64,000 bases of DNA, from the NCBI RefSeq assembly GCF_003334785.1, contig NZ_QOWV01000002.1; one strand, given 5' to 3'. Source of the stretch: Escherichia coli. Its GTDB lineage: Bacteria; Pseudomonadota; Gammaproteobacteria; Enterobacterales; Enterobacteriaceae. Position numbers: made by a program. This document shows positions 41,101 through 44,100 of this stretch, in pieces; positions within the stretch are counted from its first letter, which is position 1; each line of letters begins with the position of its first letter.

Positions 41101-44100
41101 CACAACAGAGAAGAAAAATATAGGGTAAAAACTTCATGTGGTTAGCCGATTTTGTTACGTTGTGCGAATGTGTAAAGATCCATCAGTGATTTACATTCTA
41201 ATTTTTCCATCAGGCGACTTTTATAAGTGCTGACAGTTTTGTTGCTGATGAACATTTTTTCAGCAATGTCATTATTATCCTTGCCATCAAGAATATACCG
41301 CATGACACTAATTTCTTGTTTCGATAAGGAGTCGAGTTTTTGCTGGTCGGACGTTAAACTTCCAACAAACCGGTTGAGAGAGAAGGGGAAATAGCAGTAG
41401 CCATTTTTTGCAGCTTCAATAGCCGCAATGATATTGTTCATGCCTTCTTTTTTACTCACGAAACCATTAGCGCCAGCATCAGCACAATGTTTCCCGTAAA
41501 AATGGTCATTTTTAGCGGAGACGATAATAATAATTCCGCTATATTGGCGCTTCCTCAGCGTTTCTAACACCTGGATACCGTTAACTCCGGGGATATCGAC
41601 ATCAATGATGACGATATCAGGCTTAAGTGTTTCCACCCGCTGAACGGCACTTCCGCCTTCAGTCAACTCTGCTAAGATTTCAATATCGTTTTTGATCAAT
41701 AAATTACGAATTGCTGCGATAGCAAGAGGATGGTCATCAATAATTATTGCGTTCATAGATTATTCCCTTTGCAATGAAGCATCTCCCTTCTCCCTGTAGT
41801 AATACAGACATAAGGCGTCATCTCATTTTCTCAATAAAAATAAGAAAATCTGAGCTTCCTTTAAGATAATTCGACAAGTATACCATATAAATAGTCGGCA
41901 TAAATGAAATGTCAACAATAAAATCAGGGATTGTACCGATGATTTATAGTTTCAAGTTGGCACTATAAGTCTTCTTACTAATCCTACAGGCGTAAGAATT
42001 GTATTGCAAAAGCCACGGTTTAGTCCTCTGTTGTTTTTTTTGCACCTCATTTAAATTAGGCCTCCAACGTTCCTGGGATAATGTGCAACACATGCACTGT
42101 GTTTGATATGAAGAATGAATGCTCTTTTCATTCAATTCATAAATTTCATCTATGAGAAATGAGAGATAATAGTGGAACAGATTAATTCAAATAAAAAACA
42201 TTCTAACAGAAGAAAATACTTTTCTTTATTGGCGGTAGTTTTATTTATTGCGTTTTCAGGTGCCTATGCCTATTGGTCAATGGAATTAGAAGACATGATT
42301 AGTACAGATGACGCCTATGTCACGGGGAATGCAGATCCAATTTCTGCACAAGTCTCAGGTAGTGTCACTGTCGTTAATCATAAAGATACGAACTACGTTC
42401 GACAAGGTGACATTTTAGTTTCACTGGATAAAACTGATGCCACTATCGCACTCAATAAAGCTAAAAATAATCTGGCAAATATTGTTCGGCAAACGAATAA
42501 ACTATACTTACAGGATAAACAATACAGTGCCGAAGTCGCTTCAGCACGTATTCAGTATCAACAATCTTTAGAAGATTATAACCGTCGAGTGCCGTTAGCG
42601 AAGCAGGGGGTTATTTCAAAAGAAACGCTGGAGCATACCAAAGATACGTTAATAAGTAGCAAAGCGGCATTGAATGCCGCTATCCAGGCTTATAAAGCGA
42701 ATAAAGCTTTAGTAATGAACACACCATTAAACCGTCAGCCACAAGTCGTTGAAGCGGCGGATGCAACTAAAGAAGCCTGGTTGGCGCTTAAACGTACGGA
42801 TATTAAGAGTCCGGTTACCGGCTATATTGCCCAGAGAAGTGTTCAGGTCGGCGAAACAGTGAGCCCCGGACAATCGTTAATGGCTGTCGTACCGGCACGT
42901 CAAATGTGGGTTAATGCCAACTTTAAAGAAACACAACTCACGGATGTACGGATTGGTCAATCGGTCAATATTATCAGCGATCTTTATGGTGAAAATGTTG
43001 TGTTTCATGGTCGGGTGACAGGGATCAATATGGGAACCGGCAATGCGTTCTCCTTATTACCTGCACAAAATGCGACAGGGAACTGGATCAAAATCGTTCA
43101 GCGTGTACCGGTTGAAGTTTCTCTTGATCCAAAAGAACTCATGGAACACCCCTTGCGTATTGGTTTATCGATGACAGCAACTATTGATACGAAGAACGAA
43201 GACATTGCCGAGATGCCTGAGCTGGCTTCAACCGTGACCTCCATGCCGGCTTATACCAGTAAGGCTTTAGTTATCGATACCAGTCCGATAGAAAAAGAAA
43301 TTAGCAACATTATTTCGCATAATGGACAACTTTAATGGCAATCACTAAATCAACTCCGGCACCATTAACCGGTGGGACGTTATGGTGCGTCACTATTGCA
43401 TTGTCATTAGCGACATTTATGCAAATGTTGGATTCCACTATTTCTAACGTCGCAATACCGACAATATCTGGCTTTCTGGGAGCATCAACAGACGAAGGCA
43501 CCTGGGTTATCACCTCGTTTGGTGTAGCAAATGCCATTGCGATCCCTGTTACTGGCAGGTTGGCACAAAGAATAGGCGAATTAAGATTATTTTTACTTTC
43601 AGTCACTTTTTTTTCGCTGTCTTCATTAATGTGTAGCCTATCGACCAATCTTGATGTGCTGATATTTTTTAGAGTCGTTCAGGGGTTAATGGCGGGGCCG
43701 TTAATTCCACTGTCACAGAGTTTATTATTAAGGAATTATCCGCCAGAAAAAAGAACATTTGCTCTGGCATTATGGTCAATGACCGTGATTATCGCTCCGA
43801 TATGTGGGCCGATATTGGGCGGTTATATTTGTGATAACTTTAGCTGGGGTTGGATATTTTTAATCAATGTCCCTATGGGGATTATCGTCCTGACATTATG
43901 CTTAACCTTACTTAAAGGAAGAGAAACTGAGACTTCACCGGTCAAAATGAATCTACCAGGACTGACCCTGTTAGTGCTCGGTGTTGGTGGCTTGCAAATT
44001 ATGCTTGATAAAGGGCGCGATCTGGATTGGTTCAACTCGAGTACAATAATAATATTAACAGTAGTATCAGTTATTTCTCTGATCTCTTTAGTCATTTGGG

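What the first reader, a model, noticed from the sequence alone, without database searches (positions are those of the whole stretch)
41981..41998. EvgA-box-like site in the evgA-emrK divergent region
ATCCTACA-GG-CGTAAGAA, with a neighbouring half-site TTCTTACTA, lies between evgAS and emrKY, consistent with autoregulation and efflux activation.
Basis: partly seen in the sequence, partly recalled or inferred. Interest (0 to 1): 0.25.

Follow-up and report, generated by a model that had tools for sequence, protein, structure and literature searches.

The report
Known EvgA box between evgA and emrK
The 18-base sequence is a real, strongly conserved binding box for the acid-sensing regulator EvgA in the shared control region of evgAS and the emrKY efflux pump of E. 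coli K-12, and the literature already describes it, so it is correct but ordinary.

Summary
Window 41981-41998 reads ATCCTACAGGCGTAAGAA. It lies in the 415-bp spacer between evgA (41142-41756, -) and emrK (42172-43335, +) of an E. coli K-12-type chromosome.

It matches the EvgA consensus TTCYTACA-N2-TGTARGAA at 16 of 18 positions. A matrix built only from the yfdX, frc, safA and ydeP boxes scores it 18.7 bits. That is the best non-training site in 64 kb and the only full box in the spacer.

The box and the 12 bases on its emrK side form the longest invariant block of the spacer across diverse E. coli, a divergent Escherichia lineage and a Yersinia locus. A 43-base stretch containing the box and its flanks is present in 5398 of 5426 complete E. 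coli genomes.

The most likely function is binding of a phosphorylated EvgA dimer that activates emrKY from just upstream of the core promoter. The box lies 119.5 bp upstream of the documented evgA start site, so autoregulation through it is possible but not shown.

The neighbouring "half-site" TTCTTACTA is a derived, polymorphic allele and probably not part of the site.

Verdict: already known (Kato 2000; Masuda and Church 2003, papers I could not open), low interest.

The parts
41981..41998 (.). EvgA box, an 18-bp imperfect inverted repeat ATCCTACA-GG-CGTAAGAA. It matches TTCYTACA-N2-TGTARGAA at 16 of 18 positions.
   Evidence: Leave-one-out matrix 18.75 bits. Only full box in the spacer. 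Identical in 9 of 10 sampled E. coli; the tenth differs only in the N2 spacer.
41981..41988 (+). Half-site distal to emrK, ATCCTACA. The outermost base is degenerate, as in the safA (TGCCTACA) and ydeP (AGCCTACA) boxes.
   Evidence: Core CCTACA is invariant in all 12 aligned spacers.
41991..41998 (+). Half-site proximal to emrK, CGTAAGAA. GTAAGAA is identical to the promoter-proximal arm of the safA, ydeP and frc boxes.
   Evidence: GTAAGAA is invariant in all 12 aligned spacers.
41972..41980 (+). Neighbouring half-site-like TTCTTACTA. It is a derived K-12-lineage allele and probably not part of the site.
   Evidence: Reads TTCTCACTA in 8 of 10 sampled E. coli, TTCTCATTA in L002 and ATCTCATTG in L003. 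Scores 7.78 bits against 1.86 for the majority allele; 53 equally good half-sites in 64 kb. The 43-mer that includes it is exact in 2537 records and has 1-2 mismatches in 2880.
41999..42010 (+). TTGTATTGCAAA, an invariant block directly abutting the box on the emrK side. It is a candidate -35 region (TTGTAT or TTGCAA) or an extended EvgA/RNA polymerase contact.
   Evidence: TTGTATT.CAAA is invariant from E. coli to the Yersinia locus. CA at offsets 9-10 after the box is shared by all five EvgA-dependent promoters compared.
42021..42032 (+). TAGTCCTCTGTT, a candidate core-promoter (-10-like) element for EvgA-dependent emrK transcription. It predicts a start site at about 42033-42042.
   Evidence: At the same offset (22 nt after the box), safA has CAGTCCTATTTC and ydeP has GAGTCTTATTTT. 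The best shared 12-nt window starts at offset 23; 0 of 5000 shuffles reached its score. T..TCYTCT.TT is conserved in L002 and L003. This is inference; no start-site data were seen.
42172..44873 (+). emrK-emrY operon (MFS efflux adaptor and permease), the target of activation.
   Evidence: Literature.
41142..41756 (-). evgA, the response regulator gene, divergent from emrK. evgS follows at 37544-41137.
41753..41782 (-). evgL, a 9-codon leader ORF translationally coupled to evgA (its stop overlaps the evgA ATG).
   Evidence: Annotated b4781 in MG1655. Gorelik 2024.
41870..41885 (-). evgA core promoter: extended -10 TGgTATACT (41885-41877) and start site A41870. A TTGACA lies at 41915-41910.
   Evidence: The start site is derived from the evgA leader of -114 to +7 and from the evgL ATG at +89. 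Sequence. Shimada 2014 lists TTGACA-19-TATATG for evgA.
30956..30973 (+). EvgA box upstream of yfdX (TTCCTACAATTGTAAGAC). A second, weaker box lies at 30994-31011.
   Evidence: The yfdX and yfdWUVE inverted repeats bound by EvgA are cited.
31988..32005 (+). Perfect EvgA box upstream of frc/yfdW (TTCTTACAGTTGTAAGAA).

Best explanation
The 18-bp inverted repeat at 41981-41998 is the operator for a dimer of phosphorylated EvgA, a NarL/FixJ-type response regulator. When EvgS is activated by mild acid plus alkali metal, EvgA-P binds the two arms CCTACA and GTAAGAA. From a position just upstream of the emrK core promoter it recruits or stabilises RNA polymerase. The estimated box centre is about -43 to -52. 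This turns on emrKY, whose own -35 and -10 elements are poor.

Shown here: the sequence match, its statistical excess, its uniqueness in the spacer and its strong conservation. Shown in the literature: EvgA binds the emrKY promoter region and is required for its induction. Inferred: that this box is the footprinted site, the box-to-promoter geometry and the emrK start site. The same bound dimer may also feed back on evgAS, but that is not established.
For: 1. Exact sequence and context.
2. 16 of 18 match. There are 3 hits with up to 2 mismatches in 64 kb against 0.07 expected, all upstream of EvgA targets.
3. A matrix that excludes this site scores it 18.75 bits, against a chance maximum of 9.9 +/- 2.9 (1 of 200 random sequences reached it). 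The next best full box in the spacer scores -3.25.
4. The same motif lies upstream of safA and ydeP elsewhere in the K-12 genome.
5. CCTACA.G.GTAAGAATTGTATT.CAAA is the longest invariant run in an alignment of 10 diverse E. coli, L002 (EvgA 98% identical; box is a perfect TTCCTACAGGTGTAAGAA) and L003 (EvgA 94% identical; 1 mismatch). The 43-mer occurs in 5398 of 5426 E. coli genomes, and all but one matching record are at least 95% identical.
6. Oriented toward emrK, the box has the same polarity as the safA and ydeP boxes, with a degenerate outer distal arm and a perfect GTAAGAA proximal arm. It also shares AGTCCT/AGTCTT at the identical offset.
7. Literature: EvgA binds the emrKY promoter region. 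PemrK is directly EvgA-regulated and acid-induced. An emrK-gfp fusion is dead in delta-evgA Shigella. A binding site is found at all directly regulated genes.
Against: - I could not open Kato 2000, Tanabe 1998, Masuda and Church 2003 or Itou 2009. The identity of this box with the published footprint or gel-shift probe therefore rests on my recollection plus the fact that it is the only box in the spacer.
- No emrK start-site data were seen.
- Neither candidate -10 frame is canonical (TAGTCC or TCTGTT).
- frc and yfdX do not share the AGTCYT element. safA and ydeP look like duplicates of each other, so the shared-offset evidence amounts to about two independent promoters.
- Shimada 2014 predicts a constitutive emrK promoter much further downstream (TTGATA-17-TTTCAT, 42103-42131). 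If it were the only promoter, the box would sit near -148.
Confidence: 0.85

Rival explanations
1. The box serves mainly, or additionally, for positive autoregulation of evgAS. EvgA-P bound here would stimulate evgA transcription, either from far upstream of the mapped promoter or through an unmapped upstream promoter. The candidate is the conserved TATAAAT at 41948-41942 (- strand), which would put the box near -54.
For: - EvgA is reported to be autoregulatory (references cited).
- Box-like elements sit upstream of evgA homologues in four other genera. Each is the only hit with up to 4 mismatches in its 5-8.6 kb locus, and one case (Buttiauxella) has no divergent pump gene.
- GAAACTATAAAT is invariant in all 12 aligned spacers.
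- From my own knowledge: the homologue BvgA autoactivates bvgAS.
Against: - The box centre is 119.5 bp upstream of the documented evgA start site at 41870.
- evgA fusions do not respond to mild acid, and evgA mRNA is unchanged when emrKY is induced in macrophages.
- On the evgA side there is no element at the offset shared by emrK, safA and ydeP.
- The upstream promoter is hypothetical.
Confidence: 0.4
2. EvgA bound at the box acts chiefly as an anti-silencer. It would displace or restructure H-NS on the AT-rich spacer rather than contact RNA polymerase directly.
For: The spacer is 34% G+C against 47% for the window. Shimada 2014 marks H-NS in the emrK/evgA spacer. The RpoS holoenzyme alone gives some transcription in the emrK direction in vitro.
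Against: There is no direct evidence here. The apparently fixed distance between the box and a downstream element shared with safA and ydeP argues for a stereospecific contact with RNA polymerase.
Confidence: 0.2
3. The match is a chance resemblance with no function, or the conserved block belongs to a different regulator.
For: The site has two mismatches to the consensus. The consensus itself may have been derived partly from this site.
Against: A matrix built without this site still ranks it as the top non-training hit. It is the longest invariant block of the spacer, conserved even at roughly 65% background identity in L003. In related lineages the two mismatched positions are replaced by consensus bases.
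Confidence: 0.03

Closest known systems
EvgA boxes of ydeP, safA-ydeO, yfdX and frc(yfdW)UVE. This is the 18-bp inverted repeat of Masuda and Church 2003, called the 'EvgA box' by Itou et al. 2009. Both are recalled from memory; their existence is cited.
   Same: Same 8-2-8 inverted repeat, same invariant cores CTAC and GTA, and a location upstream of an EvgA-induced operon. Polarity and downstream offset are shared with safA and ydeP.
   Different: The K-12 emrK/evgA box carries two non-consensus bases (A1 and C11) that are fixed across E. coli. It sits in a divergent spacer and so could serve two operons.
BvgA binding sites at Bordetella fha and bvg promoters. BvgA is the homologue after which EvgA is named. 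Details of the sites are from my own knowledge.
   Same: A NarL/FixJ-family response regulator dimer binds an inverted heptad repeat upstream of the core promoter, and its own operon is a target.
   Different: BvgA promoters use a high-affinity primary site plus cooperative low-specificity sites extending to the -35 region. Here there is a single box and no second full box in the spacer.
Operators of other LuxR/FixJ-type activators, namely the lux box, the RcsB box and the NarL 7-2-7 site (my own knowledge).
   Same: A dyad operator abutting or overlapping the -35 region of a promoter with weak core elements.
   Different: The sequence specificity differs. The exact position relative to the emrK start site is only inferred here.

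Membership tests
[quoted passage not shown] | 18-bp inverted repeat matching TTCYTACA-N2-TGTARGAA | tested here: met
   16 of 18 positions match. A leave-one-out matrix from four other boxes gives 18.75 bits, the top non-training site in 64 kb.
[quoted passage not shown] | Lies upstream of an operon whose induction requires EvgA | tested here: met
   The box lies 173 nt upstream of the emrK start codon. EvgA dependence of emrKY comes from the literature.
[quoted passage not shown] | Purified EvgA (phosphorylated) binds this DNA (gel shift or footprint) | not testable with these tools
   Held papers say EvgA binds the emrKY promoter region (Kato 2000, cited). The primary papers with coordinates could not be opened. 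This is the only full box in the spacer.
[quoted passage not shown] | Mutating the repeat abolishes EvgA-dependent induction | not testable with these tools
   From my recollection of Masuda and Church 2003, this was done for ydeP and b1500-ydeO. I have not seen it done for emrK.
[quoted passage not shown] | Conserved in orthologous regulatory regions | tested here: met
   The half-site cores CCTACA and GTAAGAA are invariant in 10 sampled E. coli, L002 and L003. The box has 0 mismatches to the consensus in L002 and 1 in L003. A 43-mer containing the box and its flanks is present in 5398 of 5426 genomes.
[quoted passage not shown] | Fixed position relative to the core promoter of the activated gene | tested here: inconclusive
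   An element is shared with safA and ydeP at offset 23. However, frc and yfdX differ, safA and ydeP are not independent of each other, and no emrK start site was available.
Autoregulatory operator of a two-component operon | Regulator-dependent change in transcription of its own operon through this site | not testable with these tools
   Autoregulation is reported, but fusions do not respond to acid and evgA mRNA is unchanged in Shigella. The box is at -119.5 from the mapped start site.

The most novel reading that the evidence does not exclude
E. coli proper may have fixed a deliberately weakened box. Two non-consensus bases, A1 and C11, are shared by all 10 E. coli spacers I aligned, and a 43-mer containing the box is at least 95% identical in all but one matching record among 5398 genomes. 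Sister lineages keep a perfect or near-perfect palindrome. This could set emrKY, and perhaps evgAS feedback, to a higher EvgA-P threshold than frc, yfdX or ydeP. In addition, the K-12 lineage has gained an extra adjacent half-site (C to T at 41975) that could modify occupancy. Together with the shared box-to-core-promoter spacing, this would describe a graded, geometry-fixed EvgA promoter class. It predicts an unreported long emrK leader of about 130-140 nt.
Probability: 0.25. Interest if true: 0.3.

Novelty: already known. Interest (0 to 1): 0.1.

Why it matters
The site links acid sensing by EvgS/EvgA to expression of the EmrKY multidrug and bile efflux pump, which contributes to drug tolerance and to Shigella survival in macrophages. 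Confirming it adds no new biology. It also supplies a usable prediction of the emrK promoter geometry, and it shows that the adjacent "half-site" should not be counted.

Tried and rejected
- Primary papers. I tried to open Masuda and Church 2002 and 2003, Ma 2004, Eguchi 2003, Kato 2000, Itou 2009 and Thomason 2015. None is held.
- Full-text sequence search. Searching for the box sequence or the consensus string found nothing.
- Promoter scan. The generic sigma-70 scan of the spacer gave one hit on the wrong strand or place (41895-41924, +) and fewer hits than shuffles, so it was uninformative.
- RNA families. Rfam found no RNA family in the spacer, only four tRNAs elsewhere in the window.
- emrK leader structure. 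Its folding energy is no better than shuffles (z = 0.18), with only one compensatory pair per hairpin, so it is not pursued as a riboregulator.
- A second EvgA dimer site next to the box. Rejected: no other full box in the spacer scores above -3.25 bits, and the neighbouring half-site is polymorphic with the wrong spacing.
- RcsB-type box at GTAAGAATTGTATTG. Considered by eye only; just the TAAGAAT arm resembles it, and I did not test it.

Full report
**Observation.** The surrounding genes are evgS (37544-41137, -), evgA (41142-41756, -), emrK (42172-43335, +, GTG start) and emrY (43335-44873, +). This follows from the ORF list and from the RefSeq annotation of K-12 records that are 100% identical to the window. 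The site therefore lies in the 415-bp divergent spacer, 224 nt from the evgA ATG and 173 nt from the emrK start codon. In MG1655 coordinates the box is 2483513-2483530.

**Is it more than chance?** I recalled the EvgA consensus from memory as TTCYTACA-N2-TGTARGAA (Masuda and Church 2003, a paper I could not open).
- With up to 2 mismatches the consensus hits the 64-kb window three times against 0.07 expected, and no shuffle out of 100 reached three.
- With up to 3 mismatches it hits four times against 0.46 expected.
- The other hits are 30956-30973 and 30994-31011 upstream of yfdX, and a perfect box at 31988-32005 upstream of frc. A held paper states that EvgA binds inverted repeats upstream of yfdX and yfdWUVE.
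- The same pattern also finds boxes upstream of safA and ydeP in MG1655.
- To avoid circularity I built a symmetrised weight matrix from the yfdX, frc, safA and ydeP boxes only. It scores the emrK/evgA site 18.75 bits, third in the window behind the two training sites. The maximum in 200 random 64-kb sequences averaged 9.9 +/- 2.9 bits, and only one reached 18.75.
- Within the spacer the next best full-box score is -3.25 bits. If a dimer-type EvgA box exists between evgA and emrK, it is this one.

**Conservation.**
- The 415-bp spacer is present in 5393 of 5426 complete E. coli genomes.
- A 43-mer spanning the box (41970-42012) is present in 5398 genomes. It is exact in 2537 records and has one or two mismatches in 2880.
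- I aligned the window with nine E. coli spacers taken at even steps down to 94.7% identity. I added a divergent Escherichia lineage (L002, EvgA 98% identical) and a Yersinia vastinensis locus with the same emrYK-evgAS arrangement (L003, EvgA 94% identical).
- The longest invariant run of the whole spacer is CCTACA.G.GTAAGAATTGTATT.CAAA.
- All ten E. coli carry ATCCTACAGGCGTAAGAA, with one change in the N2 spacer in strain Ec42.
- L002 carries the perfect consensus TTCCTACAGGTGTAAGAA. L003 carries TGCCTACACGTGTAAGAA, one mismatch.
- So the two non-consensus bases of the K-12 box are shared by all ten E. coli spacers aligned, while the two related lineages carry the consensus T at position 11 and L002 also at position 1.
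- More distant evgA homologues (66-71% identical; Hafnia, Klebsiella, Enterobacter, Buttiauxella) each have exactly one hit with up to 4 mismatches in their 5-8.6 kb locus. In every case it lies upstream of the evgA homologue.
- The Enterobacter locus keeps a divergent EmrA/EmrK-EmrB-type pump. The Hafnia locus instead diverges from the arginine/agmatine antiporter adiC.

**The neighbouring half-site.** TTCTTACT (41972-41979) scores 7.78 bits on the half-site matrix, and 53 equally good half-sites occur in the window. Eight of the ten sampled E. coli have TTCTCACT there (1.86 bits). L002 has TTCTCATT and L003 has ATCTCATT, so the K-12 T at 41975 is a derived allele. Its start is 9 bp from the start of the next half-site and in direct orientation, whereas the box geometry is 10 bp and inverted. 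I conclude it is not a conserved part of the operator. A lineage-specific accessory role cannot be excluded.

**Which promoter does the box serve?**

*evgA side.*
- Gorelik et al. 2024 used an evgA leader from -114 to +7 and place the evgL start codon at +89 of the sigma-S transcript.
- With evgL at 41782-41753, the evgA start site falls at A41870.
- The sequence upstream is a textbook extended -10, TGgTATACT, at 41885-41877. A TTGACA lies at 41915-41910. Shimada 2014 lists TTGACA-19-TATATG for evgA.
- The box centre (41989.5) is therefore at -119.5, which is far for direct activation.
- The same paper notes that evgA fusions do not respond to mild acid although EvgA is reported to be autoregulatory.
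- In Shigella, evgA mRNA is unchanged under conditions that induce emrKY.

*emrK side.*
- Held papers state that EvgA binds the emrKY promoter region and regulates it directly (Kato 2000, cited).
- PemrK-yfp is acid-induced in MG1655.
- An emrK-gfp fusion is silent in a delta-evgA strain.

*Box-to-promoter geometry.* I oriented each box toward its target gene.
- emrK, safA and ydeP share a degenerate outer distal arm (AT-, TG- and AG-CCTACA) and a perfect proximal arm, GTAAGAA.
- Exactly 22 nt after the box they read TAGTCCTCTGTT (emrK), CAGTCCTATTTC (safA) and GAGTCTTATTTT (ydeP). frc and yfdX box 2 share CTCTCTGATT at the same offset.
- The best shared 12-nt window starts at offset 23, and 0 of 5000 shuffles reached its score.
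- That statistic is inflated, because safA/ydeP and frc/yfdX each look like duplicated promoters.
- The element T..TCYTCT.TT is also conserved in L002 and L003, while the 10 nt before it vary.
- Reading the -10 hexamer at offsets 23-28 or at 29-34 puts the box centre at about -43 to -50. This predicts an emrK start site near 42033-42042 and a leader of roughly 130-140 nt.
- This is inference. I saw no start-site data. Shimada 2014 predicts a constitutive promoter further downstream at 42103-42131.

**Mechanism.** The best-supported reading is that a dimer of phosphorylated EvgA binds the dyad and activates emrKY from a position abutting the -35 region of a promoter with weak core elements, as other LuxR/FixJ-type activators do. 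Autoregulation of evgAS through the same site is possible. It has comparative support, because box-like elements travel with evgA homologues even where no pump gene is adjacent. It is not demonstrated, and it is geometrically awkward for the mapped promoter. The spacer is AT-rich (34% G+C against 47% for the window) and is flagged as H-NS bound, so relief of silencing may contribute.

**Comparison with what is known, and novelty.** The site meets the sequence, context and conservation criteria of an EvgA box. Direct binding and mutational tests cannot be done with these tools. The literature attributes EvgA binding to this promoter region. From my recollection, the Masuda and Church 2003 abstract reports the 18-bp motif in six upstream regions serving seven directly regulated operons, which fits one region shared by emrKY and evgAS. 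What this analysis adds is modest:
- the box is unique in the spacer;
- its two mismatches are shared by all E. coli spacers examined, while related lineages carry consensus bases at those positions;
- the adjacent half-site is not conserved;
- there is a testable promoter geometry.

**Limits.** The coordinates of the published footprint and the emrK start site therefore remain unchecked.

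Noticed in passing
window 30956-30973, 30994-31011, 31988-32005: Three further EvgA boxes lie in the same window: two upstream of yfdX (1 and 3 mismatches) and a perfect palindrome upstream of frc/yfdW. 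Both are known EvgA targets.
   Followed up: partly
window 41753-41782 (-) and 41757-41870 (-): The 9-codon leader ORF evgL (MLHCKGNNL) overlaps the evgA ATG. The 114-nt evgA leader carries four GGA motifs, the published CsrA sites. The extended -10 TGgTATACT at 41885-41877 fits the published start site at 41870.
   Followed up: partly
window 42083-42097 and 42113-42133 (+): Two small hairpins lie in the presumed emrK leader. The first is terminator-like (GTGCA-ACACA-TGCAC followed by TGTGTTTGAT). Each shows one compensatory pair in L002 or L003. The leader as a whole folds no better than shuffles (z = 0.18).
   Followed up: partly
L003 (Yersinia vastinensis IP38594), 911-8219: A complete emrY-emrK / evgA-evgS block with EvgA 94% identical to E. 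coli sits in a Yersinia genome. This suggests horizontal transfer from an Escherichia-like donor, or contamination.
   Followed up: no
L007 (398-bp contig labelled Rhizobium cauense): The contig is 100% identical at the protein level to the first 114 residues of E. coli EvgA. This is almost certainly E. coli contamination in that assembly.
   Followed up: no
L093 (NCM3722) 640-1337; L094 (HL15) 1351-2319: K-12 strain NCM3722 (L093) has an IS1 inserted inside evgA, splitting off its N-terminus. Strain HL15 (L094) has an IS5 inside emrK. Seven other top hits (H2-H5, H7, H8) list similar IS1 or IS5 elements under the match but were not inspected. These strains should lack the EvgA response or the pump.
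   Followed up: partly
L004 (Hafnia alvei) 1995-3377 (-) and 3565-3582: In Hafnia the evgA homologue is divergent from adiC (arginine/agmatine antiporter, an acid-resistance gene) rather than from an efflux pump. The box-like dyad GTCCTACGTATGTAGGCG lies in that spacer.
   Followed up: partly
L005 (Klebsiella pneumoniae) 203-221; L008 (Buttiauxella) 3696-3714: The two loci share an identical TTCCTACAGCTGTCATCCA upstream of the evgA (kvgA-like) homologue, in upstream regions that look largely dissimilar by eye apart from a second short block next to the ATG. It has one good EvgA-type half-site and a different second arm, and may be the operator of that paralogous system.
   Followed up: no
E. 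coli genome search: Twenty of the places matching the evgA-emrK region are on records classed as plasmids. This is unexpected for a chromosomal core locus.
   Followed up: no
window 41757-42171: The spacer is 34% G+C against 47% for the window. It is listed as H-NS associated and as a strong RpoS-holoenzyme SELEX peak (126.6, but the listed position 2480972 lies inside emrK, about 390 bp from the spacer). RpoS holoenzyme in vitro also gives some transcription in the emrK direction (ratio 1.54).
   Followed up: no
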